From: Candidatus Saccharimonadota bacterium
GTDB taxonomy: Bacteria > Bacillota_I > Bacilli_A > Mycoplasmatales > Hepatoplasmataceae
DNA length: 32,000 nt
Reading direction: 5' to 3'
Assembly (NCBI GenBank): GCA_027925225.1
Contig: AP027131.1
Coordinates: 300,001 to 332,000 of the forward strand
This document shows, in pieces, positions 2,754 to 30,661 of this stretch. A program made the translations under genes and the position numbers. Position 1 is the first letter of the stretch; each line of letters opens with the position of its first letter. The notes under the pieces are model-generated. The model ran no database searches, was not told the origin of the DNA, and was given only the letters and a program-made list of their open reading frames with translations.

Positions 2754-3329
2754 ATGAGTGAATTGATTAATGTAAATGATTTTAAACCTGGAATTACTTT
2801 TTCAAAAGATGGAGAAGTTTATATTGTTATTGAATCATCGCATGCTAAATCTGGAAGAGGGCAAGCGCATGTTAAAGCCAAAGTAAGAAATCTTTATACA
2901 AATGCAATTCTTACAATGACTTTTACAGGTGCTGAGAAAGTAGAAAAGGCATTTATAGAAAAAAGGAGTGTTCATTTTCTTTATTCGGATGAATTACATT
3001 CATTTTTTATGGATATGGAAAATTATGAACAATTTGAGATTGAAAATGAAAAAATAAGAAATAAAATTCATCTTTTAGTAGAGGAATTAGAATTATTTAT
3101 TATTTTTTATAAAGAAGATCTTATAGGAATAGAACTTCCTAAAAATATTTCTTTAAGAGTTGTTGAAACAGCAAATGCAGTAAAAGGTGATACTGTAAAC
3201 AAATCGACAAAACGCGCTAAATTAGAAAATAATATTGAAATCGACGTGCCACAGTTCATAAATACCAATGACAAAGTAATAATTAATACAGAAAATTTAA
3301 AATATGTTTCAAAGGTTAAAGGTAAATAA
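2754..3329 (+). CDS. efp: Elongation factor P
   Basis: The 191-aa ORF aligns along its whole length with the EF-P pattern: N-terminal NDFKPG, loop HAKSGRGQAHVKAKVRNL, YLY-type middle domain, GIELP, VVET..A.KGDT, VP.FI..GD.I.I.T....Y. Confidence 0.95.
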   Translation: MSELINVNDFKPGITFSKDGEVYIVIESSHAKSGRGQAHVKAKVRNLYTNAILTMTFTGAEKVEKAFIEKRSVHFLYSDELHSFFMDMENYEQFEIENEKIRNKIHLLVEELELFIIFYKEDLIGIELPKNISLRVVETANAVKGDTVNKSTKRAKLENNIEIDVPQFINTNDKVIINTENLKYVSKVKGK

Positions 3330-3331
3330 TT

Positions 3332-4075
3332 ATGAGAATAGTAATATCTGGTACAGTCGGAGTGGGAAAATCAACAGTTTCTTCACAATTGGTAAAAGAA
3401 TTTATAAAACAAAAATATGAAGTTAATTTTTTAAATGAAGAAACAGTAGACTCAATTTATTTGGATTTTTATTATAAAAAACCATATGATTGAGCATTTC
3501 TTGCACAACTTGATTTTCTTTTTGGCAGATTTAAGCAATGGTTAATTGATGAAAAAAAAAGAAGTAATTTAACTATAGAAAAAAATAAAAAATACATTAC
3601 AGTTTATGATCGTCATTTTTTAGATGACTATGTTTTTGCTGAATTACATACAATTAAACAAAATATCTCAAATTTTAATTCAATCACATATCAAGCAATT
3701 TATAAAGAGCTTTCAGATAAAATGAATAAATTAAAAGCAAAACCTGATTTCTTCTTTTTATTAAAAGCAAATTTAGATGTAATTGTAGAAAGATTAAAAG
3801 GAAGAGGAAGAAGTGAGGAATTAGATGTTTCTCTTGAATATTGGAAAGACTTATATAAAAACTATTATATAAGACCAACATTTAAAAATCACTTTCAACA
3901 AAACGTAATTAATTTTGTTGAAATTAATACAAATAATAAAACATCAGAAGAAGTAGTAAAAGAAATATTAAATTATATTAGCAATAATTATGATTATTCT
4001 TTTAATGAGGCAATTGAAAAAAAGCAATTAGAAAATAATAATATAAACACATTTAAAAACACAATATTAAATTAG
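3332..4075 (+). CDS. Deoxynucleoside kinase family protein, paralog 1
   Basis: ATG at 3332 is in frame with track ORF 3722-4075 through TGA codons. P-loop GTVGVGKST, DRHFLDDYVFA (ERS-type motif) and lid RLKGRGRSEE are present. Confidence 0.85.
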
Positions 4076-4110
4076 CATTAAATATTAGAAGAAAATATTT
4101 AGTGATAATT

Positions 4111-4770
4111 GTGAAAATAGTAATTACCGGAACAACTGGAGTAGGAAAATCAACAACTGTAAAAGGTCTTGATGATTATTTTTTAAAAAAAAATAAAAAA
4201 GTAAAACCCTCAAAGGAACTTGTTGTTGATTCTCCTTTTTTTGATCTTTATTTTGAAGACTTAAAGGAATGAGGTTTTCTTTCGCAACTTGATTTTTTAC
4301 TTACGAGATTTAGACAATATGTAAATAATGAAATTTCTCAAAAAAAAGATAAATCTAAAAAAGACATAATTTATCTTTTTGATCGTCATTTTCTTGAAGA
4401 TAAAATTTTTGCTGAATTAAAAATAATAAAAGAATCTATTTCTGCAAAAAATTCTGATATGTACCTTTATGTATATAATCAAATTTTAGAAAGATTAGAT
4501 GAAGATTTTACTAAGATAGATTATATTATTTTATTAAAAGCAAATTTTGAGGAAATAATAAATAGGATGAGAAAAAGGGGAAGAGAAATAGAAGAAAAAT
4601 TTTCAAGAGAATATTGATTTGATTTGTATAATGGATATTACAATAATGAAGAAAATTTAAATCTTTTTAGAAAATATTCAAAGCACTTACTTATTATAGA
4701 TACAACAAATTTAAATCCAGATGAAGTATTAAAAACAATTATCGAAAAAATAAAATCAAATAAAGGATAA
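4111..4770 (+). CDS. Deoxynucleoside kinase family protein, paralog 2 (GTG start)
   Basis: 660 nt in frame (GTG 4111 to TAA 4768-4770) with internal TGA. Motifs: MKIVITGTTGVGKST, DRHFLEDKIFA, RMRKRGREIE. The start was chosen by alignment to the paralogs. Confidence 0.8.
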
Positions 4771-4778
4771 TGAAAATT

Positions 4779-5483
4779 ATGAAAATAATCATATCAGGAA
4801 TGGTTGGTGTTGGAAAATCAACAATTTCAGAAAATCTTTATAATTATTTTATAAAAAACAACAATAGAAATTTAAAAATTGGTTTTTTAAAAGAATTACA
4901 ATTTGAAAATCCTTATCTTGATTTTTTTTATAAAGAAAGATGTGAGTGAAGTTTTTTAATTCAAATAGATTTTTTATTAGAAAGATATAAAAAATTAATA
5001 ATTGAAGATAAGAAAAATAATGATATTACAATATTTGATCGTCACTTTTTGGATGATTATATTTTTGCAAACTCTGATTCTATAAAAGAAGATATTACTA
5101 ATATTCATTTAAATATTTATTTAGAATTAAATAAATATTTAAGTTCAACTATTTCTGAAAATGATAGACCTGATTATTTTTTTCTATTAAAAGCTGAATA
5201 TAATGAAATTATTAATAGAATAAATAAAAGGGGGAGAAGTTTTGAAAAAAGTAGCGATTTAAATAAATATTGAAAAAGTATGTATAAAGTTTATTATGAA
5301 AATAAACTAGTTCAAGAATATTTATTAAGAAACACAAAAAACTTCATTATAATAGATGCAAATAAATCAGAAAAAGAAATATTAAATGAAATCTTAGATA
5401 TTTTAAATTCTAAAAATTTATGAATTTCAAGATTAATAAGAGAAAAAAATAAGAATTTAGATTTTAAATTTCTTAAATATTAA
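4779..5483 (+). CDS. Deoxynucleoside kinase family protein, paralog 3
   Basis: MKIIISGMVGVGKST, DRHFLDDYIFA and RINKRGRSFE are present. AAAGGA lies 11 nt upstream of ATG 4779, and ATG 4770 is an in-frame alternative. TGA at 5271 and 5421 are read as Trp, so the true stop is TAA 5481-5483. This gives a 27-nt overlap with the convergent helicase 3' end. Confidence 0.8.
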
Positions 5484-8686: not shown

Positions 8687-9157
8687 TTATATTTTTTTAA
8701 AAAGAAAAGTAATATATTTTTTGTTTTTTTCAATTATTTTTTTTTCATCTATCATTTTGTAATTTAGTTTTATAATTTCTTCTTTTAATAAATTAATTCC
8801 TACAGTTGGTTGAAGAATTAATTTTTGATTTATCAAAGGATATTGATTTAAAATATCTAAAATTTTTCTAGCGCCAAGTCCTGAAATTATTATTGTATTG
8901 TATTTAGATAAATCAATGTTCTTAAATCCATCAGAGATAAAAAGCTCTATTTTTTCTTTTAAGTTTTCATTTAAATTATTTCTTAATTTTTCTATTGCTT
9001 TTTTACTAATATCGGAACCATCTGCTTTAAGACAAAGATTATTTTCTATTAAAAAAATTGGCACTTTCAAATGATCAGTACCAATATCAATTACTTTATC
9101 TTCTTTTTCAATAAAAGAAACAATTGTTTGTAATCTTAATTTTAATTTTTTAGTCAT
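8687..9157 (-). CDS. trmK: tRNA (adenine22-N1)-methyltransferase TrmK-like
   Basis: [12 protein letters not shown]..., the SAM motif VIDIGTDH and ISGLGARKI are present. The gene lies immediately downstream of rpoD, with an 8-nt overlap, as in Firmicutes. Confidence 0.75.
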   Translation of the reverse strand: MTKKLKLRLQTIVSFIEKEDKVIDIGTDHLKVPIFLIENNLCLKADGSDISKKAIEKLRNNLNENLKEKIELFISDGFKNIDLSKYNTIIISGLGARKILDILNQYPLINQKLILQPTVGINLLKEEIIKLNYKMIDEKKIIEKNKKYITFLFKKI

Positions 9158-10475
9158 TTTTTAAATGTTCTAAATCTTTTCTTACATTCTCTTTGTCTTT
9201 AAGTTTTTTCATCGCTTTAGATTCAATTTGTCTAATTCTTTCTCTAGTTACATTAAATCTTTGTCCAATTTCTTCTAGAGAATATCTTTGTTTAATTTCA
9301 TTTGAACCTTCTTCAAGCCCATTTCTTAATCTTATAATATCTACTTCTCTTTTATTTAAATATTTTGGTAAAATTTCATTTATTTTAGAAATAATTTCTT
9401 TGTTGGTTGCATATTTATCGGGAGATATTGTTTGTTTATCTTCTACAAAATCATAAAGAAATGATTCGTTATCAGAACTTATTGTTTTATCAAGTGAGGA
9501 AGGATCGATATTTATAAGTCTTATTTGATTTATTTTACTTTCAGTAATATCTCCTCCCATTTCTTTTGCAATTTCAGCATCGGTTGGTCTTCTTCCGAGT
9601 TCTTGCATTAATTCTCTTGTTATTTTTGAAAGTTTATTAATAGTTTCAACCATATGAACAGGAATACGAACAGTACGAGCTTGATCTGCTATTGCTCTTG
9701 TTATCGCTTGTCTAATTCATCAAGTTGCATAAGTTGATATTTTATATCCTTTTTTATAATCAAATTTATTAATTGCTCTTATAAGTCCATTATTTCCTTC
9801 AGAAATTAAATCTGAAAAAGGGAGTCCTCTACCTTTATATTTTTTTGCTATATTTATTACAAGTCTTAAATTATGATTAATAAGAATTTCTTTTGCAATT
9901 CTAGCTCTATCTTTTTGTGCTCAAGTTGAATCTAACTGAATTCCTGCTTCGATTTGCTTTGCAAGCTCTATTTCTTTTTCTGCAGTAAGAAGAACACCAT
10001 ATTTTCCAACTCATTGCATATATCACTTAATATGATCATCGGTATCTATTAATTCATTATCAATAACAGTATCATCAATATCTTGATAATACTCAAGGTC
10101 ATTTTTTACTTCGCTCTCAGCATTTGCTGTAATTTCTTCACTTGATTTTTCTAAATTTTCTTCTTCTGTTGAATTTTTGTCTTCTTCAAATGTATAAGAT
10201 GTATTTGTTTCTTCTTCAATTTTAACATCATTAAGATCAACCATTTTTTGTTCTTGTTTTTGGTCTTCTTGAATAATTCTTTCAGCAATAAGAAGATCGA
10301 AGAAATTTTCAGTTTCATCATCATTTGTCATTATAAGATTATGATTATCTAGAAATTTAAAAACTTCTTCCTCAGTAAAATATTCTTTTTTGCTCTTTTT
10401 TAATTCACCTTTTAAAATCTTAATTACAGTCTCATATTCATTTAAATATATTTTTTTCTTATCATTTTTTGCCAT
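9150..10475 (-). CDS. rpoD: Primary RNA polymerase sigma factor (sigma-70/SigA), 441 aa
   Basis: Fragments 10023-10475 and 9150-9653 are in frame (1326 nt). The intervening part encodes [69 protein letters not shown], with WW encoded by TGA TGA. Region 4 is [24 protein letters not shown]. Confidence 0.95.
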
Positions 10476-10480
10476 ATAAA

Positions 10481-12247
10481 TTATTTATTCACCTTACTTG
10501 TTAATCATTTCAAATCATCATAATTAAAATCATCTTCATTACGAATTTGCTCTCTTAATTTTAGATTGTTATATTCTTTGACTAAAAAATTTATTTTATC
10601 TTTCCTATTGTTTAACTCTTCTTTCATATATTCATCATTTTTATTTGCATTTTTATTGATTTTAACATCTATAATTTCCTCATAAAGCAATAATTCTTTT
10701 TCAGTAAAATTTTCTTTTAGTCTATTAAAATCCAAATTTTCATTATTAAATTTTAGGATATCAATAATTTTATTATATAACCTTGTTATTTTTTTTGTAA
10801 AGAAGATATTATTTTCTTTTAGTAGATCTTTTTTTTCTAAGATTAAAGCAAAGACAAAAATCTCTTGCTCCATTATTCTATATGATATTTGCTCGATTTT
10901 GAAATAATTATTGTTTTTTATATTTACATTTTTATTTGATTTAACATTTTTGTGATTTATAATATTTTCTTTATTTTCATCTACAAGTATTTTCACATAA
11001 TCAAATATTGTCTGTTGTTTAATAAAATTAAGATATTTTTCTCTATTAATCCCATCTTTTTCTAATTTAATAATTTTAAATAAATTTAAAATATCTTCCT
11101 TTTTTGTATTTTTTTTCGAAAGTGTTTTATTAATAAGAAATTCAATAAAATCTATTGGATTTTCTATTTCTTTTTTTATATTTTCTTTATTTTCTAAATT
11201 TAAAAATTCATCAAAATCTTTCCCTTTTTTTATTTGAATTATTTTTACAATAAAACCTTCATTTATTAATTGTTTTCCTACTTTTTCTGTTGTGTTTATC
11301 CCGGGTTCATCAACATCAAAACAGAGATTAATTTCTTTTGCTAAACTTTTTAAATATTCAAGATGATATTTAGAAAAATTAGTTCCCATTGTTGCTATTA
11401 CATTTTCATATTCTAATTTATCAAATGCAATAGCATCCATAAATCCTTCTACAATAATAGCTTTTCTTTTTAATTTAATTTTGTTTTCAGCATTATTTAC
11501 ATTGTAAAGTGTTTTTTGTTTATTAAAAACTTTTGTTTCTTCTGAATTTAAATATTTTGAATATGTATTTTCCTTTCCTATTATTCTTCCTGAAAAGGCT
11601 ATTATTTCATTGTTTATGTTAAAAATGGGAAAAATAATTCTGTCTTTAAAAAAATCATATACTTTTGTTTCTGATGTTCTTACTAATTTAGATTTAATAA
11701 TTTCCTCTTCTTTAAAACCTTTTTTAAGTAAAAAATTAAAAAGAGAATTATTTCCTTCTGTAAAACCAATTTTAAATTTTGTAATTATTTTTTCATTAAT
11801 TTTTCTTTTGTTTAAATATTCTTTTATTTCATTCTTATTTTTTTCATTTAACTTGTTTTCTAAATTAAATTTAAAAAAATTGCTTGCTTCTAAATTTATT
11901 TTTTTTAATAATTCTTTTTCGGGATCAATAAAAACTTTTCTTTCATTTATGTATATTTTTCAATCGATTCCTGATAATGTTGATATTTTTTTAATTGAAT
12001 CTATAAAACTTAAATTTTCATAATTTTGTACAAATTTTATAGTTCCTCCACCTGCATTACATGAAAAACATTTAAAAATTTTTTTATTAGGAGAAACAAT
12101 AAGTGATGGATTTGAATCACTATGAAATGGACAAAGTCCAACATAATTGTTTCCTTTTTTTTCTAAATGAATATAGCTTGAAATTATATTTTCAATCTTA
12201 ACTTTGTTATCGATTAAGTCTATTAATTCACTTAAATTATTTTGCAT
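10481..12247 (-). CDS. dnaG: DNA primase, 588 aa
   Basis: Zn-finger CPFHSDSNPSLIVSPNKKIFKCFSC and TOPRIM EGFMDAIA are present. I translated 11441-11959 and found it open, with TGA only. The TGA at 10505 is read through to TAA 10481-10483. Confidence 0.9.
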
Positions 12248-13847
12248 TTTGCTTAATGTATTTTCTTAAATCTCCAAATTTTATTCTTTCCTGCTTTTTA
12301 TTGTCTCAATGTCTAATTGTAAAGGTTTTATCATCTTTATATTGTTTATCTATCGTAATAACAAAAGGTGTACCAATTGCATCTTGTCTAAAATATCTTT
12401 TCCCAATGCTTCCACTTGTTTGAAAAATTATTGCACCAAAATCTCTTTTTGCTATCTTATTAAATATTGCTTTTGCATCTTTTTCTTCATTTTTTGTAAG
12501 TGGACATATTGCAATTTTATATGGAGCAAGAGAAAAAGGAAAATAAATTTTGTTTTTATCTTTATTATAATTCTCTATTAAAATTGCAAAAAGTAAACGT
12601 TCAACCCCCATAGATGTTTCAATAATATTTGGAATTATTCTTTTATTTTCTTCGGTACAATGAAAATTTGTTTTTGAAAAATGTTCATGATTTTTTAAAT
12701 CAAAATCGCCTCGATCTGCAATTCCTAAAATTTCTCCAAAACCAAAAGGGAAATTATAATTTATATCAACCGTTTTTTTTGAATAATGTGCAAGATCAGA
12801 TTTTTTTACATTTTCATATTTAAGATTTTCTTCATTTAATTTAAGTTCTTTTGTTAAAAAAAGCTTTACTTTTTTTAGTGTTTTATTGAATTCTTTTGTA
12901 TTTGTTTTTGGTAAAATAAATGATTCCAGCTCTAATTGCTCAAACTCTCTTGTTTTAAAGATAAAATTCCCAGGAGTTACTTCATTTCTAAAAGATTTAC
13001 CAATTTGGCCAATTGAAAAAGGAAGTTTTAAATGTAAAGTGTCTTTTAAGTTTTTAAAATTTATAAATATTCCTTGTGCTGTCTCTGGTCTTAAATAAAG
13101 TTCTTTATTTCTTTCTGTTTTTGAATTAATTATTTTAAACATTAAGTTAAATATTTTTATTTCACTTCATCTAGTTTCAGATTTATATTTTATTTTTTCC
13201 ATAGCTTCAGACTCAATTTGAAATATTTCTTCTGCGCTTATATTAAATATTTGGCTAATTTCTTCTGAAGAATATTTTTTACCAATTTTATTAGAATTTT
13301 CTTCAATTCCGTTTATAAGTCTTATAATAGATTCTTCTCTTTTATTTAAATATTTTGGTAAAAATTCATTTATTTTAGAAATAATTTTTTTATTTTTATC
13401 ATTTTCTTTATTTGAAGTGTTTTTATTTTTTTCTAAAAAATCATAAATAAATGATTCTGGTAATTTTATTTCTTTTTTTATTAGTTCTTCTATTTCTTTT
13501 AAAGAGAGATCGCTTATATTTTTTTTTAGATATTCTTTTAATAATTTTTCAACATTATATCTAACATTATCATTTAAGCGTTCAATCATATAATCATTAA
13601 ATTTATTTAAATGTCCAGAAGCCTCTCATACTTTATTATTCAATATAATAGATGAATCAAATAAAAATGATTTTTCATTATTGATTACAAAATAATTTTT
13701 TCAAAGAGATTTTAAATTATCTTTAAGCAATGTTCCAATTGGTCCATAGTCGAAAGAATTAGCAAGTCCACCATAAATTTCTGAACTTGGATAAATAAAT
13801 CCATTTTCTTTTAAATGAGAAATTAATAATTGTATTTCTTTTTGCAT
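12237..13847 (-). CDS. glyQS: Glycyl-tRNA synthetase (class II, alpha2 type), 536 aa, with a sigma-derived insert
   Basis: The N-terminus was translated from 13847: MQKEIQLLISHLKENGFIYPSSEIYGGLANSFDYGPIG...VWEASGHLNKFNDYMIE. The core is FNLMFK...YLRPETAQGIFINFKN...GQIGKSFRNEVTPGNFIFKTREFEQLE...GSIGKRYFRQDAIGTPF. Track ORFs 13167-13589 and 12306-13142 are in the same frame. The TGA at 12306 is read through to TAA 12237-12239, overlapping the dnaG start by 11 nt. Confidence 0.9.
13194..13459 (-). repeat. ~265-bp segment homologous to rpoD 9205-9468 (sigma regions 3.2-4.2), embedded in frame inside glyS
   Basis: Direct nucleotide alignment shows long identical runs, for example tcttttatttaaatattttggtaaaa and ttcatttattttagaaataattt. 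The peptide is [22 protein letters not shown]...EEISQIFNISAEEIFQIESEAMEKIK, against Rpo[23 protein letters not shown]...[26 protein letters not shown]. Confidence 0.85.
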
Positions 13848-13897
13848 ATCTACTTTATTTTAATACTTAAGAAGATTAAAATGAATAATAATGTTTT

Positions 13898-16312
13898 TTA
13901 ATTTAATTTATAATTATTTATCCTAAAATTTAAAAATTTTTTTCTTTCATTATTTAAAACATTGTCATAAATTAAATCTATTTTTTTATTTTTTACAAGC
14001 TCATCAAATTCTTCTTGTAATAATGAAATATTTATTATATCTCCATTTTCATTAATAGCTATTTTGCCTTTATCTCATAGAGAGTGAACATTGCAATCTA
14101 ATAATAAGTAATTATTATTAGAAAAAAAATAATTTAAATTTTCATCTAAATATTTTTCATCAGTGTTCATTAAAATTTTTAAAAATTCTTTATTTTCAAT
14201 AATATGAGCTCTTTCAAAATTAGAAAAACTATTAACAAAATCTTTTGTATATTTTTTATTTTTTCTATCATTCTCTATTATTTTTGATCATATATATCTT
14301 AAATCAGTTTTATTAATTTTTTCTTTTTCTGTTTTTATTTTTTTAATAATTTTTTCTTTTTCATTAAAAATGAATTTATCAGGTACTATTAATAAATCTA
14401 AAAATTTGTTATTTTTAAAAATTTCATAATTTTGTGATGCAAATGCATTTTTTATTTCTCTTCATTCTTTCTCTTCTTTTTTATTGATTTTATATTTTTT
14501 TTTAATTTTCATTTTATTTTCTTTTAATAAACATAAAATATTTTCCTCTTTTATGTCATTTATTAAATTTGTATTAAAAATATTATTATTATTTTTATTT
14601 TTTGAATTTGAAATTAATGAAAAAAATTTAAATTCATAATTATTATTTATTCCATCTTGTTCATAAATTTTTTGTAATTCCTTAATTTCAATGCTATTCA
14701 AAATTAATCTTATTGGATCACTGTTTGGATTTGATAATCCGCCAGAAGAATGTGATCCAGTTATAAATGCATCAACATCTTTTATTGTCAATTTAAAATC
14801 AATAATATTTTTATTTAACTCCTCTATATTTCCCTTAAATTTAACTTCTTCTTTTTTCATATTTTTATTATTTGTTTTATCAAAGTTTTTATTTCTATAT
14901 TTTAATAATTTTAAATATTTTGGTTTTTTTAAAAAAAAATGTTCACCATATCTATTAGAAGAAGAACCTATTATTTGTTTTTCATCATTTAAAAGCATAG
15001 TATTAAAAACCAAACTGTGATCACTTTTTTTAAATATCATTATTCCTTTACCTGAATAAAAATATTTTGATTTTTCTTTGCTTTTTAAATTAACAATAAT
15101 TTTAAAATATTCTTCCTTTTTCATTTTATTTTCCCTTTTATTTTTGAAAGCACATCTAAAAATTTCTTCTAACACTGGTACAACAATTGAATTTCCGGCT
15201 TGTTTTCTTAAAAAATTTTCTGAAATTAAATTTTCATTGTTTATTTTATCAAAATCTTGTTTTTTAAATCCCATTATTTTTCATAATTCAGAAGCACTTA
15301 AAATTCTTATTACATTTAATTTTTTATCAAAAATTTTTATTCTATTTAATGCGCCAGTTGCAGTTATTGTTGGAGATATAGATTTGCTGGCATTAAAAAC
15401 CATATTCTCAGATTGAAAATTTGAATAATTTTTTAAAATTATTTTTTGTATTCCGTTAAAATGATTTTTAAAAGAATTTTCATCTATTTTTTCATTTATT
15501 TTAATTTCTTTTTTATAATTATTAGTATCTTTTTTATCAAAAAAATTGCTAATTCTTAATTTTGTTAAATTAATTTCTTTTGGAAAAATAAATTTATTTT
15601 GTTCAAATTCAGAAAACATAAAAGCTCTTTCTCTATTTTGAGGTATATTAAAATATTTGGCATTTAATGTAAACTTATGATTAACATATCCTAATTTTTC
15701 TAAAAATAATTCTCATTTTTTAAAATTTTTTTTATTTTTTTCAGAGAATATTGCTTTTACATTTTCCATCAATAAAAATTTAGGTAATTTATTTAATTTA
15801 TTTAATTCATCTAAAATTCTTTTAACTTCTCATAATAGAGAAGAACTACTCCCATAAACTAATCCTTTTTGCAATCCTTGTAAAGATAAATCTTGACAAG
15901 GAAAAGAATAAGTCATTAAATCATGTTTGGGAATATTTTCTCCTTTTAAATCTTTTATACTTCCAATATTATTTGTTATATTTAATGATTTTTCTAATAG
16001 TCATAAAAATTTTATTGATAATGATCTTAAATTGGTATATTTGTTTTTTCCATCTTTTGATAAATTATAATTTTCAAGTTTTTTTAATATTTCTTTTTTT
16101 AATATTTCCTTTTCTGTATTTGAAGCTGAATTTAAAATTTTGTCAATTTTTTTTCTTTCATTTTTAATTATTATATTTTCATGAACAAACGCATAAGAAA
16201 TAACAGAATAAATATCTCAATCACAACATAAAACAACTTCAAATTTTAATCCTATATTTTTAAATGCTTTAGCTTGTGCTCCAATACCAGAGAATAATTC
16301 AACTATTTTCAT
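13898..16312 (-). CDS. C5-cytosine DNA methyltransferase fused in one ORF to a C-terminal HNH-type nuclease domain (804 aa)
   Basis: I translated the whole ORF 16312 to 13898 and found only TGA inside. MTase motifs: I ELFSGIGA, IV SFPCQDLS, VI ENV, VIII QNRER, X QAGNSIVVPV. There is no stop after motif X. An unassigned region of about 210 aa follows, then ERAHIIENKEF...NNNYLLLDCNVHSLWDKGKIAINENG, which fits the AHI...N..L....H..fD.G.i pattern of HNH_2-type restriction nucleases. Confidence 0.8.
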
Positions 16313-16645: not shown

Positions 16646-17000
16646 ATGACTATTCAATAATTTTTTTAATAATTTTCTGATATTATATCTAACATTATCA
16701 TTTAAATGCTCAATTATATAATCATTAAATTTATTTAAATATTCCAAAGTATCTCATAATTTATATATTTAATATAATATATAAATCAAATAAAAATTAT
16801 TTTTTCATCATTTATTACAAAATTATTTTTTTTAAATAAATTTTAAATTATTTTTAAGTATTATTATTATTTTACAATAGTAAAAAGAATTAGTTATATC
16901 ACTACAAATTTTTGAATTTTGATAAATAAATTCACTTTTTTTAAATAAGAAATTAATAATTTTATTTCTTTTTACATATCTATTTTATTTTAATGTTTGA
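16646..17000 (-). pseudogene. Decayed copy (relic 2) of the glyS 5' end and its upstream region
   Basis: Aligns by eye to 13540-13870, with shared strings such as atatctaacattatcatttaa..caat.atataatcattaaatttatttaaat and gaaattaataatt.tatttcttttt.catatcta. The ATG is retained at 16975-16977, but codon 2 is CAA>TAA and there are many further lesions. Confidence 0.75.
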
Positions 17001-17151
17001 AAAAATAAATTAATATAAAATATTTTAGGTTCTAAATAAAATTGCTAATTAATATAATTTTTTAATATTTTTTTTATTTTTAAAATTGTTTTGTTAAGTT
17101 ATATACAAAAAATATTCCATACTTACAATATATATTGTATATTTAATTTAT

Positions 17152-17571
17152 ATGAAATATGTTATTTTGATTGCAAATAGTGAAAAATATGATCATTACA
17201 AATGATTAAGAAAAGAAAAAAAGATAATATGATCTTTTTCAAAATATTTTCATATTCAAAATGATGATATAGTATTGTTATATTCTACTAAAAACAAAGA
17301 AATAAAATTTTTGTTAAATTCTGAATTAATTTTAAAAAATTCAAATAAAAATGAAATTTTAGAAAAAATGGGAGAAAAAGAATTATCAAAATATAAAAAT
17401 AAAAATTTTGAAAATAAAACTTCTTTATTTAATATGAAATTAATTAAAGAATTAGATTTACCTATAAAATTGAATGAAATAAGAAATAAAAAAATACCAG
17501 AGGTTCTATTCTATATTGAAGAAGAAAGAGATTCAGATTTATTTAAAAAAATTACAGATTTAATTTTATAA
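17152..17571 (+). CDS. Hypothetical 139-aa protein, possibly PUA/EVE-like
   Basis: ATG 17152 is in frame with track ORF 17275-17571 through two TGA codons. The N-terminus MKYVILIANSEKYDHYKWLRKEKKIIWSFSKYFHIQNDDIVLLYST loosely fits the EVE pattern (Y.l....p.kY..W...W......i..gD.vl.Y.s). The assignment is weak. Confidence 0.4.
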
Positions 17572-17725
17572 AAATTAAAAAGATTTTTAGACAAAAAAAT
17601 ATATTAAAAATATAAATATAATTCCTTTTAGAGATATAAAAAATAGGAAAATAAATAAATAAAAATTTATACATCATATTTAATAGTTGCTCTAACACCA
17701 TTAATTGTTAAAATTAATATATCTA

Positions 17726-19532
17726 ATGAAAAAAGAAAATATCAGAAACTTTTCAATTATTGCTCATATTGATCATGGTAAATCTACGCTTGCAGATCGT
17801 ATATTAGAATATACTGGTTCTATTTCAAAAAGAGAAATGAAGGCACAAATCTTAGATACTATGGATCTTGAGAGAGAACGTGGTATTACTATAAAATTAA
17901 ATGCTGTTCAAATTTCTTATAAATATAATAATGAAGAATATATTTTAAATTTAATTGATACTCCTGGACATGTTGATTTTACATATGAAGTATCCCGCTC
18001 ATTAGCTGCAAGCGATGGAGTATTACTCTTAGTAGATGCAACACAAGGCGTTCAACCACAAACAATAGCAAATATGTATCTTGCGCTTGAAAATAATCTT
18101 GTTATCTTACCTGTAATTAATAAAATTGATTCTGAATTAGCAGATATTAAAAAAGCAGAAAAAGAAATAAAAGAAATTTTAGGTCTTGAAATAAATGACA
18201 TAGTCTATATTTCTGCTAAAACTGGGAAAAATATTGACAAAGTATTAAAGCTTATAATTGAAAAAATTCCTGCTCCTCAAGATGCAGATGACAAAAAACC
18301 TCTTAAAGCACTTGTATTTGATTCTTATTTTGATTCTTTTAGAGGAATTATTGTATTTATAAGATTATTGCAAGGAAGAATAAAAAAAGGAGATAAATTA
18401 AAATTTTTACAAAATAAGCATCAATTTGAAGTTATTTCAGTAGGTGTAAATACACCTTTTGAAACAGAAAAAGATCATCTTGAAGCAGGGGAAACGGGCT
18501 GAATAGTAACTAATGAAAAAGATATTCATTCTTTTCATGTGGGAGATACTTTAACTTATGAAAATGAAAATAGTATAACTCCTATACAAGGATATAAATC
18601 ATCAAAACCTATGGTTTTTTCTGGTTTTTATCCAATAGATACAAATAAATATTTACTATTAGAAGAAGCATTGGGAAAAATTTCTCTTTCAGATTCTTCA
18701 CTTACTTATGAAAAAGAAAGTTCTAAAGCATTAGGATTTGGCTTCAGAATTGGCTTTTTAGGATTATTGCATCTTGAAATTATTCAAGAAAGAATTGAAA
18801 GAGAATTTAAAATAGATATTATTTCTACTGCACCTTCTGTTATTTATAATGTTTATTTAAAAGATAAAAAAGAACCATTAGTAATTAGAAATCCTTCAGA
18901 TTTTCCTGATAAAGTAAATATAAATTATGTAAAAGAACCTTATGTTAAACTATCTCTTTTTTCCCCACAAGTTTATGTGGGGAAATTAATGGAATATATT
19001 CATAGAAAAAGAGGTAATTATATTGATTTAGAGATATTTTCTGAAAAAATGAATGCTTTAATTTATGAAATTCCACTTGCTGAAATTGTATTTGGTTTTT
19101 TTGATTCTATTAAATCTATATCAAAAGGTTATGCTTCTTTTGATTATCAAGAAATAGGATATAAAAAATCAAATTTAGCAAAACTTTGAAGTTTTAATAG
19201 CAGGAGAAAAAATAGATGCTCTTTCTTTAATTGTAGAAAAAGATAATGCTTATTATATTGGAAGAGATCTTACTCAAAAATTAAAAGAAACACTTGTAAG
19301 ACAGAATTTTGAGGTTGCAATTCAAGCAAGCTTAAATGGAAAAATTATTGCAAGAGAAACATTAAAAGCATATAGAAAAGATGTAACTGGTTATCTTTAT
19401 GGTGGAGATGTTTCAAGAAAGAAAAAGCTTTTAGAAAAACAGAAAAAAGGGAAAAATAAAATGAAGCAAATTGGTAAAATATCTATTCCTCAAGAAGCTT
19501 TTATTTCTATTTTAAAAAATAATAATAAATAA
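17726..19532 (+). pseudogene. lepA: lepA (EF4) copy 1, conserved motifs intact but frameshifted by one extra T at 19185-19187
   Basis: G-domain motifs [22 protein letters not shown] and NKID are present. The length is 1807 nt, one more than copy 2. Here the sequence is aaactttgaag, against aaacttgaag in copy 2. The original frame ends at TAA 19244-19246, and the last ~114 codons ([12 protein letters not shown]...[14 protein letters not shown]) lie in the +1 frame. Confidence 0.7.
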
Positions 19533-19566
19533 AAAAAATACACATTTAAAAATGTGTATTTTTTAA
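19533..19566. terminator. Bidirectional rho-independent terminator between convergent lepA-1 and the fibre-gene relic
   Basis: A perfect 11-bp palindromic stem (aatacacattt / aaatgtgtatt, 19537-19560) is flanked by an A-run on the left and a T-run on the right. Confidence 0.75.
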
Positions 19567-19584
19567 AATAGTATTATTTTATAT

Positions 19585-20343
19585 TTATGCTGTTCTTTTG
19601 AAAACTCTCATTCCTGTTCCAACTCCTAAATCATAAGCTTTATTTTTATCTTTGCTACCAGTTAATGAAGTTCATGCTGTTTGACAATTATCAGCACTTT
19701 CACTAGGAACTGTATTTCCTATTATTTTTGAATTTCCTCCTTGATCATATGTATTAAATTTATTTATACTATTACCAAATCCTGTTACTACATCTGCAGC
19801 AAAATTTGTTATTCTTGCTGATCATTGGTGATTATGAGAAATTATATTTCCATTATTTGAACTGCATCCAATTATAGCTTGCCCTTCTGATAATATTCCT
19901 AAACTTTCTCAAAATCCATATCTTGGTGGCATTAGAGAAATAATAATTGATCCAATTGGTAATTTTAAATTTTCCATTTGATTTTTTAATTCTAAAATTT
20001 CATTTTGATTATTAATAATTTGATTTAATGATTGATTTATACCTTCTGTTGGATTCATAGTACTATCATCTGCCAATTCTGAAGATAAAGAAATTCCTTC
20101 TTCAAATTCTGGTCATTGATTAATTGTTTCTCCATTTAAAGTAAGTTGAGGATAGTTATATATACCATTTTCTATTTCAATTAAATCTGCACTATTTTGA
20201 TTAACAATTTTATTTGTTTCATTTAAATTTGCTTGATCTGCTTTTAATGAAATATCTCCTGTATTTTTATCAATTTGTGTTTTTCAAGGATTTATTCCAA
20301 AAGTTGGATTTGAAGTACTATTATTTGCTAATTTTAAAGTCTT
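19585..20343 (-). pseudogene. 5'-truncated fibre-family paralog (A'), 252 codons: one GINPW repeat, coiled coil and C-terminal domain
   Basis: The frame is open from 20343 to TAA 19585-19587 and is preceded by an in-frame TAA at 20344-20346. There is no plausible start or N-terminal part. It abuts glyS relic 3. The sequence is collinear with the 3' third of gene 25768-27813. Confidence 0.7.
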
Positions 20344-20354: not shown

Positions 20355-20760
20355 GTGAAAATGATTATTCAATTATTTTTTAATAATTTTTTAACATTAT
20401 ATCTAATATTTAAATATCCAGAAGCCTCTCATACTTTATTATTTAATATAATAGATGAATCAAATAAAAATGATTTTTCATTATTGATTACAAAATAATT
20501 TTTTCAAAGAGATTTTAAATTATCTTTAAGAAACGGTTCAGTTAGACCATAGTAAAAAAAAAAAATTAGTAAGACCACCATAAATTTCTTAGCTTGAATA
20601 AATAAATTCATTTTTATTTTAAATAAAAAAATAATAATTGTATTTCTTTTTGAATATCTGCTTTATTTTAATAATCAAGAAAATTAAAATGAATAACAAT
20701 TTTTTTTAATTTAAATATAATTTTTTTTCATTATTTAAAGAATTATTATAAATAATGAAA
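20355..20760 (-). pseudogene. Decayed copy (relic 3) of the glyS 5' end, followed by a ~60-bp relic of the 3' end of the C5-MTase/HNH gene
   Basis: Long stretches are identical to 13600-13760, for example ccagaagcctctcatactttattatt.aatataatagatgaatcaaataaaaatgatttttcattattgattacaaaataattttttcaaagagattttaaattatctttaag. The start codon is destroyed (cat>aat at 20653-20655) and there is a ~42-bp deletion. The match continues through attaaaatgaataa.aat...ttttttc..cattatttaaa (13880-13960). Confidence 0.8.
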
Positions 20761-20763: not shown

Positions 20764-23247
20764 TTACTTATTTAATAATTCATAATTTTGTTTAATATTT
20801 TCATAAAATGTTTTCATTTCTTTACTTCAAATTTTTAATTTTTCTTTATTTTTAGGTATTGGAATTAAAAAATCATAAAAATTTATAGAAATAGTAGGTA
20901 TTGTACCTTGAATAAAAATTGCACTTCTAACTTGTTCTTTAAATATCTTTGAAGTTGCAAATATTTTGCTTAATGAATAATTATCTAAATTTAAAACATT
21001 TCTTTTATTTACTTTTATTATATATAAATGAGATTGTATAACTGATTTAATGTCATTTTTATCTAAAATAGCAAATTGACCAACTCTACTTTTTCCATCT
21101 TTTACAAAAATAATATCTCCTTCTTCTAACTTTTGTTTATTTTTAAATTTTGATTCAAAATATTCTTTTGTAATATATCATTGTTTATTTAAATTTATTT
21201 TATAATCTTGAATATCAGAAGTTCTTATAAAAGGAATATAATCTTTTTCATTTAATTCTTCCTCAATATCATCCAAACTAAAATAACCACTACTTTCTGG
21301 CCCATTGCCAACAGGTATTAATTTTTTTTTGTTAGAATATAACACATCAATTTCAATTAATTCTTTAATTGTATAAAAATCATATATATTCTTAAATTCT
21401 TTTTTCATTTTATTTTGATAACTTCTATATTTTATATAAAAGTTTGTGTATAAAGAAAGATTATTTTCATTATATATGTCTAACATTTTAATTTTAAAAA
21501 TTTGTGAATTTTCTTTTTTATTTTTAAAGTCTTGGTATAAATTTTCAAAATCACTTTTTATTATTTTCTCTTTTTTTTCATTTTGTAATATATTTTGCAT
21601 CAAATCTTTTTCATATTTAATTTTCCCATTTTTATCATGACCCACCTCAAATACATTAAAAAGAAAAACATTTTTATTAGAAAACTTAGAAATTATTTCT
21701 TCTTTTGTTAAATTATTTTCAAATTTTCTTAAAATAAGAACTGATGTCTTAATACCTGTATGAGGTTTAAATGTTTCGGTTGGTAAGTTTATTATTTTTT
21801 CTACATAACATTTAGAAAGAATAAATTGTCTAAGTGAAAGTAATGTTGGATTTCCAAATATTCCTTCAGGTAAAATTATTGCTAATTGTCCACCTACTTT
21901 TAAAAAATTAATACATTGTTCAATAAAAAGGTATTCTGGATTAACTGCTTTTTCAATTTTGCCATTTTTCTTTGCTACTTCATAATTTTTCAAAATTTCA
22001 TAATCTTCTACTTGAATTTTTTTTCCAAAAGGAGGATTTGTAATAATTAAATCAAAATCTTTTTTAATAGTTTTTTTACTAACTTTTTCACTTGATAAAG
22101 AATCAACATCAAAAATATTAGTAACACCATCACCCATGATAGACATATATGCTTTTGATATTTTTGCAACTGTTTTATTTAAATCAAAACCATAAATATT
22201 TTTACTAGCTATTTTTTGTTTTAAATTTTCCTTTTCTTCTCTTGAAATTTTTTTTAATTCAATAATCTCTCAAATATTTTTTAAATACTCAACAATAAAA
22301 CCACCAGTACCACAAGCAGGATCTAATATTTTTTTGTTTTCATCAATATTTAAAAAATTAAGAATAAATTTTACTACATTTCTAGGGGTAAAAAATTGAC
22401 CATGATCTCCTTTAAGGGTTTTAGAAATAATAGTTTCAAATGCATCTGTAATAACATCACTGGAAGAAGTCATAAAACTAACTTTTTGAAGATTTTCAAT
22501 TATATAACTAATTATTTCTTCGCTAAATTCAATTGTTTCATCTTCTTCAAAATTATCAGCATAACTTTTTTTGACATTATTAAATATTTTAATTAATTGA
22601 TTCTTATTGGGTTCTGAATCATTTATATTACTTTCTTTTCAAACAAATTCTAAATTATCTTCATCTTCCTTATATCTTTCATCATAAATTTTGCAAAAAA
22701 GCACTCTAATTAAGTTATCTACAATCATTCCATCACTTTCCGCGGTGCTTGCTTTTATATAAGAATGAATTTCTTGAAAAGTTTTTTTTAAATTTTCAAA
22801 AGACTTTAAATCTTTTTTTTTAAAATTATCTATAACATTATTAAAATTAGGAATATTATTTATACTAATATAATTCAAAGAATCAGTTTTTTTATCTACA
22901 ACTTTTTTTAAAAATATTTTTTTCACCCCATTAAATAAAACACCATAATGAGCATCGCAAAGTCCCAAATATTTTTTTAATTGATTTATACCATCTTTTC
23001 TGTTATTTCTTTTACATTCAACAATAATATGTAAATTATTATTTTTATCAAAAACAGCAATATCAATCAGATATTTTTCTAAACTTCCAGGAGATTTTGG
23101 AATTCTATATTGTGGATGAGTAGTAATATTATTCTTGGGATATCCGTAAATTTTAAAAAGTTCTTCTGAAAAGGGTTGAATTGATTCTACTTCTTCGGGA
23201 GTGGCATTAATTTTCTTTGTTGTTATATAATCTGTTATTTGTTTCAT
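20764..23247 (-). CDS. Single-chain type IIG-like restriction-modification enzyme: N-terminal PD-(D/E)xK nuclease, gamma-class N6-adenine MTase and one HsdS-like target-recognition domain (827 aa)
   Basis: Fragments 22639-23247, 22270-22473 and 21178-22146 plus the tail to TAA 20764-20766 are in one frame, and I translated the gaps. Nuclease motif: LIDIAVFD...HIIVECK. MTase motifs: GQFFTPRNVV, DPACGTGGF (I), NPPFG (IV). The C-terminus (LEEGDIIFVKDGKSRVGQFAIL...IPIPKNKEKLKI) resembles an HsdS half-subunit. Confidence 0.8.
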
Positions 23248-23333
23248 TTTATTTTTTCCTTTATTATTTTTAATAATTAGTATTTTAAATAAATTATTTT
23301 TTTTCTATATTTATATTTAAACACAAAAAATTT

Positions 23334-23805: not shown

Positions 23806-23910
23806 TCTCAAACATGAATTCACTAATTATTAAAAAAAGCAAATAAAAAATTTAAACATTATGTTTTAATAAATATTTAATAATTAATATTATTAAAATT
23901 AATATATCTA

Positions 23911-25716: not shown

Positions 25717-25749
25717 AAAAATACACATTTAAAAATGTGTATTTTTTAA
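25717..25749. terminator. Second copy of the bidirectional terminator (atacacattt aaaa atgtgtat + T-run)
   Basis: The same palindrome as at 19537-19560, located between lepA-2 and the convergent fibre gene. Confidence 0.75.
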
Positions 25750-25767
25750 AATATTATTATTTTATAT

Positions 25768-30606: not shown

Positions 30607-30661
30607 GATTTTCCTTTCATCAATATTTATTTATTAAAGATAAATAACTTTTAATTATTTT

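What the first reader, a model, noticed from the sequence alone, without database searches (positions are those of the whole stretch)
13194..13459. Piece of the housekeeping sigma factor inserted in frame into glycyl-tRNA synthetase
glyS is uninterrupted (536 aa), and its N-terminal and catalytic parts are canonical. Between FNDYMIE...KLLKEYLKK and FNLMFK, where GlyRS normally has a short variable insertion, sit ~88 codons that match the 3' end of rpoD 4 kb away (9205-9468) at the nucleotide level. That rpoD segment covers sigma regions 3.2-4.2, including the -35-binding helix-turn-helix. The frame is preserved and no stop occurs, so the insert is translated. The basic recognition residues are lost (TRERIRQIE became SAEEIFQIE), which suggests the fold is retained while promoter binding is not. 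A sigma region-4 module inside an aminoacyl-tRNA synthetase is not something I know to be described. It could be neutral cargo in a tolerant loop, or a new interaction surface, since region 4 contacts the RNAP beta-flap and activators.
Basis: partly seen in the sequence, partly recalled or inferred. Interest (0 to 1): 0.8.

Follow-up and report, generated by a model that had tools for sequence, protein, structure and literature searches.

The report
Sigma-factor domain copied into glycyl-tRNA synthetase
In a small clade of uncultured, very AT-rich mycoplasma-like bacteria, an 89-codon piece of the housekeeping sigma factor gene was copied in frame into the glycyl-tRNA synthetase gene 4 kb away. 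It has since lost its DNA-reading residues but is still kept intact by selection, so it is a rare, freshly caught case of a new domain combination in an essential enzyme.

Summary
The window is a code-4 Mollicute (20.6% GC) with a minus-strand glyS-dnaG-rpoD operon. GlyRS residues 131-219/220 (window 13188/13191-13457) copy RpoD residues 337-425/426 (9198/9201-9467). Identity is 77% nt and 59-61% aa (BLASTP E 2e-28), and Pfam Sigma70_r4 scores above its gathering threshold inside the GlyRS architecture.

It is not an assembly artefact. A second species, from an independent Logan assembly (79% identical GlyRS), has the same insert at the same site. All other listed GlyRS lack it, and a scan of 1.84 billion cluster representatives found none with it.

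The insert sits in the second knuckle of the degenerate zinc-ribbon head of the GlyRS insertion domain, near the tRNA acceptor-arm side.

After insertion there was a burst of replacements. It removed near-invariant sigma arginines and lysines, including the -35 contacts, and the helix-turn-helix charge went from +4 to -4. Since the two species split, the region-4 part has evolved as slowly as the host enzyme, while the 24-residue linker drifts.

The best reading is a folded sigma-4 appendage that no longer reads promoters and that selection keeps intact. Its function is unproven. It is a new variant of a known kind, of moderate interest.

The parts
12237..13847 (-). glyS, alpha2-type glycyl-tRNA synthetase, 536 aa under code 4 (stop codon included). 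Four TGA codons encode Trp at W49, W74, W227 and W514.
   Evidence: Code-4 ORF. Pfam tRNA-synt_2b and HGTP_anticodon. PDB GlyRS hits to E 4e-90 for the 79%-identical orthologue P0001. Host part dN/dS 0.21 against the orthologue.
13188..13457 (-). rpoD-derived in-frame insert, GlyRS aa 131-220. K220 (13188-13190) could come from either donor or host.
   Evidence: BLASTP E 2e-28. blastn 77%, E 7e-53. Junction alignment with insert-less L002 glyS.
13386..13457 (-). Linker part of the insert (aa 131-154), derived from the sigma region 3.2 / 3.2-4 linker. It is evolving freely.
   Evidence: 15/24 residues differ between the two species, against 13/65 in the region-4 part (Fisher p 2.5e-4). NG86 dN 0.50. 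pLDDT 45-59.
13191..13385 (-). Sigma region 4 (4.1 + helix-turn-helix 4.2) part of the insert, aa 155-219.
   Evidence: Pfam Sigma70_r4 26.6 bits > 24.1. AF2 pLDDT 82-94, and the best PDB matches are all sigmaA region 4. dN/dS 0.20, Fisher p 1.3e-4.
13194..13238 (-). Former -35 recognition helix, now acidic: SAEEIFQIESEAMEK (aa 204-218); in RpoD it reads [15 protein letters not shown].
   Evidence: Sequence. R/K replaced at positions at least 90% conserved in 47 sigma sequences. R584/E585/R588 are -35 determinants in E. coli (PMC2613000).
13458..13586 (-). Host GlyRS insertion domain upstream of the insert (aa 88-130). It contains the degenerate first zinc knuckle (IERLNDN) and the helical segment LSLKEIEELIKKEIKLP that ends at the insertion point.
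   Evidence: Alignment with Cys-bearing relatives, e.g. P0026 DCKSCK...KCP|NCK. Role of this domain from PMC12208437.
9150..10475 (-). rpoD, primary sigma factor, 441 aa (stop included).
   Evidence: Pfam r1.2, r2, r3, r4.
9198..9467 (-). Donor segment in rpoD, aa 337-426. The last 15 codons of rpoD (9153-9197) were not copied.
10481..12247 (-). dnaG (primase), between glyS and rpoD in the same operon.
   Evidence: Code-4 ORF. Same order in L001 and L002, with Pfam primase domains.

Best explanation
Origin. In the common ancestor of two related Hepatoplasma-like Mollicutes, an 89-codon segment of rpoD was copied by illegitimate recombination or template switching into glyS. The segment covers the end of region 3.2, the linker, region 4.1 and the region 4.2 helix-turn-helix, but not the C-terminal tail. 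glyS lies 4 kb upstream in the same operon and in the same orientation. One junction lies in an AAA-NAT-AAA microhomology. The copy landed in frame in the tight turn of the second knuckle of the GlyRS insertion domain. That knuckle had already lost its zinc ligands (CPxC had become LPKY).

Subsequent evolution. The enzyme stayed a working GlyRS. A burst of amino-acid replacements then removed the sigma arginines and lysines that contact -35 DNA and made the recognition helix acidic. After that the region-4 part settled under purifying selection as strong as on the rest of GlyRS. The 24-residue linker has drifted.

How it works (inferred). The insert is translated and forms a folded sigma-4 helical bundle that can no longer bind promoters. 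It hangs on a flexible tether at the tip of the insertion domain, beside the site where the tRNA acceptor arm docks. Selection keeps it folded and non-sticky, because a misfolded or nucleic-acid-binding module at that spot would damage an essential enzyme. Any positive function, such as stabilising the zinc-less knuckle or providing a new protein contact, is possible but not shown.

Shown versus inferred. Shown: homology, site, ancestry, open frame, selection pattern and residue losses. Inferred: translation, folding, loss of DNA binding and the reason for retention.

Confidence. The stated 0.55 applies to the whole statement, including the 'inert, well-behaved appendage' reading. The origin and ancestry part alone I would put at about 0.95.
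For: - Homology and nesting.
- Same insert at the same site in an independent assembly of a second species (GlyRS 79% identical) with the same glyS-dnaG-rpoD-trmK synteny.
- The two inserts share derived changes and are no closer to their own rpoD than to the other species' rpoD (0.757 vs 0.754; 0.721 vs 0.721). This indicates one ancestral event with no ongoing gene conversion.
- The nearest relative (L002, 55% identical) and all other listed GlyRS lack the insert. An exhaustive phmmer scan of 1.84e9 cluster representatives returned 25 hits. The best match the query's region-4 part near their C-termini as sigma factors do, and the two with atypical length or match position (P0246, P0255) were confirmed as sigma factors by Pfam.
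- Timing: the synonymous saturation index is 0.63 for insert vs donor, 0.65 for the species pair, and 0.86-1.05 against L002.
- Selection: for the region-4 part between species, dN 0.112, dS 0.574, ratio 0.20 (p 1.3e-4); the host ratio is 0.21. Amino-acid differences are 15/24 in the linker, 13/65 in r4 and 82/444 in the host.
- Stem branch: about 26 nonsynonymous against about 4 synonymous changes in r4.
- Directional charge loss: 5 of 8 r4 arginines replaced by non-basic residues in both copies (p 0.026). The HTH charge went from +4 to -4/-3. R to F needed 3 nucleotide changes, and K to E changes run against the AT bias.
- The replaced residues are at least 90% conserved in sigma factors. 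R584/E585/R588 are -35 determinants (PMC2613000).
- Fold: AF2 pLDDT 82-94 for the r4 part, and the top PDB matches are all sigmaA region 4 (1rio TM 0.85, rmsd 1.7 A).
- Site: the insertion domain, its zinc motif and the tRNA acceptor arm (PMC12208437); alignment.
- Junction microhomology.
Against: - There are only two insert-bearing sequences, so all rate estimates rest on 92 codons.
- Synonymous sites are about 65% saturated, so absolute dS values are unreliable.
- My maximum-likelihood branch model did not converge to sensible values.
- The stem-branch excess of replacements is not significantly above neutrality.
- Constraint as strong as on the host enzyme (ratio 0.20) is more than simple 'stay folded' selection would obviously require. 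That leaves room for a real function.
- In the full-length model the insert has low confidence (pLDDT 48-60), so its position relative to the tRNA site is not established.
- The insert-only model was built on a sigma alignment and is biased towards the sigma fold.
- There is no expression or protein evidence.
- A second, insert-free glyS elsewhere in these genomes cannot be excluded from 32 kb and 7.4 kb of sequence.
Confidence: 0.55

Rival explanations
1. Neofunctionalised interaction module. The retained sigma-4 fold, now acidic, is a new protein-binding surface on GlyRS. It might dock on RNA polymerase or on a sigma-4-binding regulator, or act as a sigma-4 decoy, thereby linking tRNA charging to transcription.
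For: The region-4 part is as constrained as the essential host enzyme (ratio 0.20 vs 0.21; 13/65 vs 82/444 differences). The remodelled helix EIFQIESEAMEK and the 4.1 helix [16 protein letters not shown] are identical in both species. The charge change is directional, not random.
Against: The C-terminal 15 residues of RpoD were not copied. Its E. coli counterpart, helix S5, belongs to region 4, which contacts the flap tip (PMC6755090). No partner is identifiable. Constraint could simply reflect the cost of misfolding inside an essential enzyme. There are only two sequences.
Confidence: 0.2
2. Structural prosthesis for the insertion domain. The inserted bundle stabilises the zinc-less ribbon head, or tunes how the neighbouring helix meets the tRNA acceptor arm, so it contributes to GlyRS catalysis itself.
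For: The insertion point is exactly in the second knuckle of a zinc ribbon whose cysteines were already lost in this clade. This domain lies at the tRNA acceptor-arm site (PMC12208437). The host helix leading into the insert is 100% conserved between the two species.
Against: Insert-less relatives with the same degenerate knuckle, such as L002 and Ca. Hepatoplasma, manage without it. The insert is attached through a fast-evolving, low-confidence linker, which argues against rigid packing. An acidic surface is unlikely to bind tRNA.
Confidence: 0.15
3. Neutral cargo in a tolerant loop that is simply decaying.
For: The linker part evolves at about the neutral rate. The stem-branch ratio is not distinguishable from 1. 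The hosts are reduced genomes in which drift is strong.
Against: The frame is open, with no indels in 89 codons, in two species whose synonymous sites are about 65% saturated. The region-4 part changes about 4.5 times more slowly than the linker (p 2.5e-4), and its dN/dS of 0.20 is significantly below 1.
Confidence: 0.08
4. Assembly chimera or chance low-complexity resemblance.
For: The genome is 20% GC and repeat-rich, and the donor is only 4 kb away.
Against: An independent assembly from a different run and species carries the insert at the same codon with 20% nucleotide divergence. The copy is 23% diverged from the donor, so it is not a collapsed repeat. E-values are 2e-28 and 7e-53, and the Pfam hit is above threshold.
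Confidence: 0.02

Closest known systems
Lineage-specific appended or inserted domains of aminoacyl-tRNA synthetases, such as the insertion domains of alpha2 GlyRS and the WHEP, EMAPII/Trbp111-like and GST-like additions (named from general knowledge)
   Same: An extra folded module sits in a variable surface region of an otherwise canonical class II synthetase, and the catalytic and anticodon-binding domains are untouched.
   Different: The module is a transcription-factor domain (sigma region 4). Its donor gene is still identifiable at the nucleotide level 4 kb away in the same operon. It is confined to two known sequences. I found no report of a sigma domain in any synthetase, and none among 1.84e9 representative proteins.
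Sigma-70 region 4 (Pfam PF04545), as in T. aquaticus sigmaA region 4 bound to -35 DNA (PDB 1KU7, 1RIO)
   Same: Sequence homology is above the Pfam threshold. The predicted fold matches (TM 0.72-0.85 normalised to the target, rmsd 1.7-2.8 A). Core hydrophobic residues and the turn glycine are kept.
   Different: It is not at the C-terminus of a sigma factor and has no region 2. The conserved R/K residues of the DNA-contact surface are replaced, with net HTH charge going from +4 to -4. The C-terminal tail is absent.
Mycobacterial and Thermus alpha2 GlyRS (PDB 8SLG, 8U2Q, 1ATI)
   Same: These are the best sequence and structure matches for the host protein. They share the domain order: catalytic core, insertion domain with zinc-ribbon head, beta-hairpin, HGTP anticodon domain (PMC12208437).
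   Different: Here the zinc ligands are lost and 89 foreign residues are inserted between the two positions of the second knuckle.
Pol gamma accessory subunit (PolG2), a GlyRS-fold protein recruited to a nucleic-acid polymerase
   Same: It appears as a structural relative of the host fold. It is a precedent for the GlyRS scaffold being combined with polymerase-related functions.
   Different: PolG2 is a whole-protein co-option that has lost synthetase activity. Here the synthetase looks intact, and it is a polymerase-factor domain that has moved into it.

Membership tests
Alpha2-type class II glycyl-tRNA synthetase (GlyQS) | Class II catalytic core (tRNA-synt_2b) with its conserved motif residues | tested here: met
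   Pfam PF00587, 52.6 bits > 29.3. The invariant columns of a 120-sequence alignment (G283, K284, E289, F295, E301, Q304, E306) are kept, including in the window fragment.
Alpha2-type class II glycyl-tRNA synthetase (GlyQS) | C-terminal HGTP anticodon-binding domain | tested here: met
   Pfam PF03129, 56.7 bits > 21.
Alpha2-type class II glycyl-tRNA synthetase (GlyQS) | Overall fold like solved GlyRS structures | tested here: met
   For orthologue P0001: AF2 pLDDT 86.8, Foldseek 8slg E 3e-41, TM 0.85 to target; phmmer against PDB E 4e-90.
Alpha2-type class II glycyl-tRNA synthetase (GlyQS) | Glycylation activity on tRNA-Gly | not testable with these tools
   Inferred only, from conserved motifs and dN/dS 0.21 on the host part.
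Sigma-70 region 4 domain (PF04545) | Profile match above the curated threshold | tested here: met
   26.6 bits in the full protein and 30.3 bits for the isolated segment, against 24.1. The precomputed hit on P0001 is flagged weak.
Sigma-70 region 4 domain (PF04545) | Helical bundle with a helix-turn-helix fold | tested here: met
   AF2 helices at segment residues 23-41, 44-54, 69-76 and 80-99. All top PDB matches are sigmaA region 4. Caveat: the model was built on a sigma alignment.
Sigma-70 region 4 domain (PF04545) | Conserved -35 DNA-contact residues (E. coli R584, E585, R586, R588 and flanking basic residues) | tested here: not met
   R to A/E, R to E, R to F, K to E and K to E in both copies, at columns at least 90% conserved in 47 sigma sequences. 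Determinant residues are taken from PMC2613000.
Sigma-70 family sigma factor (whole protein) | Region 2 (core binding and -10 recognition) together with region 4 in one polypeptide | tested here: not met
   No Sigma70_r2 or r3 hit in GlyRS. Only residues 337-426 of RpoD were copied.
Sigma-70 region 4 domain (PF04545) | Binding to the RNAP beta-flap tip helix | not testable with these tools
   The C-terminal 15 residues of RpoD are absent from the insert. This argues against binding by analogy with E. coli (PMC6755090), but it was not tested.
Intein or other self-removing intervening sequence | Nucleophile (Cys/Ser/Thr) at both splice junctions, terminal His-Asn, Hint or endonuclease domain | tested here: not met
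   The junctions read KLP|ESF and EKIK|YKS. Pfam finds only Sigma70_r4 in the insert.

The most novel reading that the evidence does not exclude
The sigma-4 module inside GlyRS is a working new interaction surface. One possibility is that it docks GlyRS on RNA polymerase. Another is that it acts as a sigma-4 mimic that binds or titrates a sigma-4-binding partner. Either would give a genome-reduced symbiont a direct physical link between tRNA charging and transcription initiation. The early burst of charge-reversing substitutions would then be adaptive remodelling, not mere detoxification.
Probability: 0.15. Interest if true: 0.85.

Novelty: new variant of a known kind. Interest (0 to 1): 0.55.

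Why it matters
New domain combinations in bacterial housekeeping enzymes are usually seen only long after the event, when donor, mechanism and early history are lost. Here the main pieces are still visible:
- the donor gene is in the same operon;
- the breakpoints are known to the codon;
- an insert-less sister lineage is available;
- two descendants allow rates to be measured.

Together they show a three-phase history. First came an in-frame copy into a degenerate, tolerant knuckle. Then came rapid removal of the donor's nucleic-acid-binding residues. Then came purifying selection equal to that on the host enzyme.

This is a natural experiment on how an essential enzyme absorbs a foreign, potentially harmful DNA-binding domain. 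It also gives a concrete construct (GlyRS with and without residues 131-219) for testing whether such inserts are tolerated passengers or acquire function. If the domain does contact the transcription machinery, it would be an unprecedented synthetase-polymerase link.

Tried and rejected
- A word-indexed protein search with the 96-aa insert alone found no scored hits, not even P0001, so it was uninformative. The exhaustive phmmer scan replaced it.
- A GTDB representative-genome scan by peptide patterns and by a 25-nt DNA word conserved in all five copies found nothing. Neither the window's organism nor a close relative is among the species representatives.
- The JGI metagenome scan found only insert-less GlyRS flanks.
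- An exact-sequence look-up of the window's 140-aa code-11 fragment found nothing on record, so the window's own source could not be identified.
- Adding sigma fragments to the full-length GlyRS alignment to support the insert in AF2 failed. MAFFT scattered them over the synthetase in every mode I tried. I therefore ran two separate predictions.
- The maximum-likelihood branch codon model (GY-type, F3x4) ran to the branch-length bounds with near-zero omega, which is a saturation and composition degeneracy. I discarded it. I relied instead on NG86, on amino-acid difference counts with the linker as internal neutral control, and on a codon-identity saturation index.
- The promoter/terminator scan around glyS was no better than shuffles.
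- Rfam found nothing in the window.
- Literature searches for a sigma domain in a synthetase found nothing relevant.
- The 555-aa GlyRS P0120 was checked as a possible second insertion case. Its extra length is an internal tandem duplication elsewhere in the protein, in an unrelated organism.
- P0246 and P0255 from the exhaustive scan are sigma factors, not synthetases.
- The intein reading was rejected on junction residues and the absence of Hint or endonuclease domains.
Full report
**What is there.** The window is 20.6% GC and uses genetic code 4. With TGA read as Trp, the minus strand carries an uninterrupted operon:
- glyS: 12237-13847, 536 aa
- dnaG: 10481-12247
- rpoD: 9150-10475, 441 aa
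- a short trmK-like gene

The four TGA codons in glyS fall at conserved GlyRS tryptophans. Under code 11 the gene splits into 140-aa and 278-aa ORFs.

BLASTP of GlyRS against RpoD gives one strong, ungapped match. GlyRS 131-226 aligns with RpoD 337-432 at 57/96 identical residues, E 2e-28. At the DNA level, 13182-13457 matches 9192-9467 at 77% (E 7e-53). The spacing is 3990 nt, in the same orientation and in phase.

Pfam places Sigma70_r4 (26.6 bits, gathering score 24.1) at GlyRS 167-220. It is nested between the N-terminal part of the catalytic domain and tRNA-synt_2b/HGTP_anticodon. RpoD shows the normal r1.2-r2-r3-r4 series.

**Not an artefact, and lineage-specific.** A search of 5.8 billion protein clusters with the whole GlyRS returned 8000 scored hits, of which the best 120 were listed. 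Among those 120, only P0001 has the same length and a precomputed Sigma70_r4 hit. It is 79% identical and 536 aa. The other GlyRS are about 445-465 aa, and the named ones come from Ca. Hepatoplasma, Ca. Tyloplasma, Spiroplasma, Mesoplasma and similar genera.

P0001 lies on a 7.4-kb Logan contig from run ERR14127475 with the same glyS-dnaG-rpoD-trmK order. The closest insert-less relative is P0002/L002 (55% identical, run SRR24015491). It has the same operon and reads IKLP-KYKDKTKW where the window reads IKLP-[insert]-KYKSETRW.

An exhaustive phmmer scan used the 140-aa junction-spanning segment against 1.84 billion cluster representatives. It found 25 hits; the best match the region-4 part of the query near their own C-termini, as sigma factors do. 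I checked the two hits whose length or match position was atypical (P0246, P0255), and both are sigma factors. Scans of GTDB representative genomes and JGI metagenomes found no further carriers.

**One ancestral event.** All five copies align codon for codon without gaps: two inserts and three rpoD segments.
- The two inserts share many derived residues, for example VD to ES, RLR to RLI, G to S, QR to QI, RERIR to xEEIF, SK to SE and KK to EK.
- Each insert is no closer to its own genome's rpoD than to the other's (0.757 vs 0.754; 0.721 vs 0.721 nt identity). The insertion therefore happened once, before the two species split, and there is no ongoing gene conversion.
- Both inserts are closer to the W/L1 rpoD than to L002 rpoD.

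NG86 dS values are underestimates in this composition, so I also measured how far conserved-amino-acid codons are towards codon-usage saturation:

| Comparison | Saturation index |
|---|---|
| Two species, over 1274 codons | 0.65 |
| Insert vs donor | 0.63 |
| Against L002 | 0.86-1.05 |

The copy was therefore made after L002 diverged and not long before the two carriers split.

**Junctions and mechanism of origin.** The left junction (CCA|GAA) shows no homology. The right junction falls in AAA-NAT-AAA. There the host has K-Y-K-D-K and the donor has L-K-D-K, sharing up to 9 nt. The donor and target are in the same operon, strand and phase. The copy has sharp ends with microhomology on one side. 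This fits template switching or illegitimate recombination, which is my inference.

The locus is recombination-prone in the window's genome:
- The first ~105 codons of glyS plus its upstream region occur three times: the real copy at 13532-13941 and decayed copies at 16660-17026 and 20407-20747.
- Each decayed copy lies next to a restriction-modification gene.
- A 2.5-kb lepA-containing block is duplicated.

These later events are absent from L001. There the gene upstream of glyS is the homologue of window 17098-17571.

**Where in GlyRS.** Relatives that keep the cysteines read D-C-K-x-C ... K-C-P-x-C. This is a zinc ribbon forming the head of the insertion domain between motifs 1 and 2. In mycobacterial GlyRS structures, a helical segment between the two knuckles is thought to lie at the tRNA acceptor-arm site. 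The beta-stem under the zinc head reaches the A76 pocket (PMC12208437).

In the whole Hepatoplasma-like group the zinc ligands are already gone. The insert sits exactly inside the second knuckle (LP|KY). The host helix leading into it, LSLKEIEELIKKEIKLP, is identical in both carriers.

**What was copied and what changed.** The copy spans the end of region 3, the linker, region 4.1 and the region 4.2 helix-turn-helix. It stops 15 residues before the RpoD C-terminus. In E. coli the corresponding C-terminal helix (S5) belongs to region 4, which contacts the flap tip helix (PMC6755090); the claim that the flap tip and MotA target the same C-terminal residues rests only on the title of a reference cited in that paper.

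I aligned the inserts with 45 sigma-factor sequences, including the window's own RpoD segment. The insert keeps the core residues: L, R-E of 4.1, the turn G, F, I, Q-I-E. It replaces columns that are at least 90% conserved:
- R to I in 4.1
- G to S
- R to A/E, R to E and R to F in the recognition helix
- K to E

R584, E585 and R588 of E. coli sigma70 are the genetic and structural determinants of -35 recognition (PMC2613000).

The net charge of the HTH segment goes from +4 in RpoD to -4 and -3 in the inserts. Five of eight region-4 arginines are lost to non-basic residues in both copies, against 13 of 60 other residues replaced (Fisher p 0.026). Several changes need two or three nucleotide substitutions (AGA to GAA, AGA to TTT) or run against the AT bias (AAA to GAA).

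An AF2 model of the window's segment on this alignment has pLDDT 82-94 over the region-4 part and below 60 over the linker. Its best PDB matches are all sigmaA region 4: 4g6d, 1rio (TM 0.85 normalised to the target, rmsd 1.7 A) and 1ku7.

In a full-length model of P0001 the synthetase is confident (pLDDT 86.8). The insert is helical but of low confidence (48-60), because only two alignment rows cover it. Its orientation is therefore unknown.

**Selection.** Comparisons between the two carriers:

| Region | dN | dS | dN/dS | aa differences |
|---|---|---|---|---|
| Region-4 part of insert | 0.112 | 0.574 | 0.20 (p 1.3e-4) | 13/65 |
| Host GlyRS | 0.118 | n/a | 0.21 | 82/444 |
| Linker (24 codons) | 0.50 | n/a | about neutral | 15/24 |
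| Same segment in RpoD | n/a | n/a | about 0.01 | 0 |

The region-4 part is indistinguishable from the host (p 0.74). The linker differs from the region-4 part (p 2.5e-4).

On the stem branch, from a parsimony ancestor, the region-4 part took about 26 nonsynonymous and about 4 synonymous changes. That gives a ratio of about 1.8, which is not significantly different from 1. The linker-versus-domain contrast does not depend on dS. A maximum-likelihood branch model was degenerate and is not used.

**Interpretation.**
- Shown: a single, fairly recent, in-frame partial duplication of rpoD into glyS; retention of an open, indel-free frame in two diverged species; loss of the sigma DNA-contact residues with charge reversal; and present-day constraint on the region-4 part equal to that on the enzyme.
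- Inferred: the insert is translated; it folds as a sigma-4 bundle on a flexible tether at the tip of the insertion domain; it no longer binds promoters and probably not the beta-flap; and the early burst removed properties that would be harmful next to the tRNA acceptor site or in competition with sigma.

Is the domain now only a well-behaved passenger, does it prop up the zinc-less knuckle, or has it gained a partner? These data cannot decide. The strength of the constraint keeps the functional readings alive, and I put them together at about one third. Strictly neutral cargo and mis-assembly are disfavoured.

**Comparison with the known.** The host is a bona fide alpha2-type GlyRS. The insert is a member of the Sigma70_r4 domain family by sequence and predicted fold. 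It fails the family's functional hallmark, the DNA-contact residues, and it is not part of a sigma factor.

Synthetases are known to carry idiosyncratic insertions and appended domains. However, I found no report or database instance of a sigma domain in one. I therefore class it as a new variant of a known kind. It is of moderate interest, chiefly as a dated, donor-in-hand example of domain accretion in an essential enzyme.

Noticed in passing
window 13532-13941, 16660-17026, 20407-20747 (all minus strand): The first ~105 codons of glyS plus about 90 nt upstream occur three times. One is the real gene start. The other two are decayed copies (81% and 87% identical, with stops, frameshifts and a lost start codon) that share a common breakpoint near GlyRS codon 105. 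Each decayed copy lies beside a restriction-modification gene. This looks like repeated integration or duplication at the glyS 5' end.
   Followed up: partly
window 13898-16312 (-) and 20764-23304 (-): There are two large restriction-modification-type ORFs. One is an 804-aa fusion of a C5 cytosine methylase with an HNH endonuclease domain. The other is an 827/846-aa protein with HSDR_N plus an N6 methylase, resembling MmeI/type IIG enzymes. The first is absent from the orthologous position in L001.
   Followed up: partly
window 17648-20176 vs 23832-26353: A 2.5-kb direct duplication (92.5% identical) contains lepA/EF4. Both copies look damaged. Copy 1 (17705-19246) has a frameshifted C-terminus. 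Copy 2 (23884-25716) has an in-frame stop at 25336-25338, where copy 1 has Glu.
   Followed up: partly
window 19585-20343, 25768-27813, 27951-29354, 29587-30630, 30662-31687 (all minus): This is a family of paralogous ORFs with a conserved C-terminus (KNKAYGLGIGTGMRIFRRTA). In the 681-aa member there are many internal repeats of about 55-60 aa (GINPWKTQID ... LNGETITEWPE). There is no significant Pfam hit. They may be variable surface proteins.
   Followed up: partly
window 9150-9467 (rpoD region 4) and relatives: RpoD of this clade has about 6 extra residues in the turn between regions 4.1 and 4.2 ([12 protein letters not shown]). It also has Asn where most of the aligned primary sigma factors have Phe/Tyr (RLRNG vs RLRFG). 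The insert inherited both features.
   Followed up: no
window 8687-9160 (-) and L001 5457-5927: The TrmK-like methyltransferase downstream of rpoD is only 156-157 aa in the two insert-bearing species, against 218 aa in L002. This is a shared truncation in the same small clade.
   Followed up: no
window 13458-13586 (-) and GlyRS of Hepatoplasma-like relatives (P0002, P0003, P0005, P0022): The four cysteines of the GlyRS insertion-domain zinc ribbon (CxxC...CPxC, still present in Ca. Tyloplasma P0026 and in the family consensus) are lost in the whole Hepatoplasma-like group. This loss predates the sigma insertion.
   Followed up: partly
window 3326-5483 (+): There are three tandem paralogous P-loop deoxynucleoside-kinase-like genes, with weak DNA similarity among them. 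L002 has the same triple arrangement, annotated dNK.
   Followed up: no
P0120 (ENA protein, unrelated organism): This is a 555-aa GlyRS whose extra length is an exact-looking internal tandem duplication of about 100 residues of the catalytic domain (EVRYRDHD...CSAYDEE occurs twice). It could be an assembly artefact or a real duplication.
   Followed up: no
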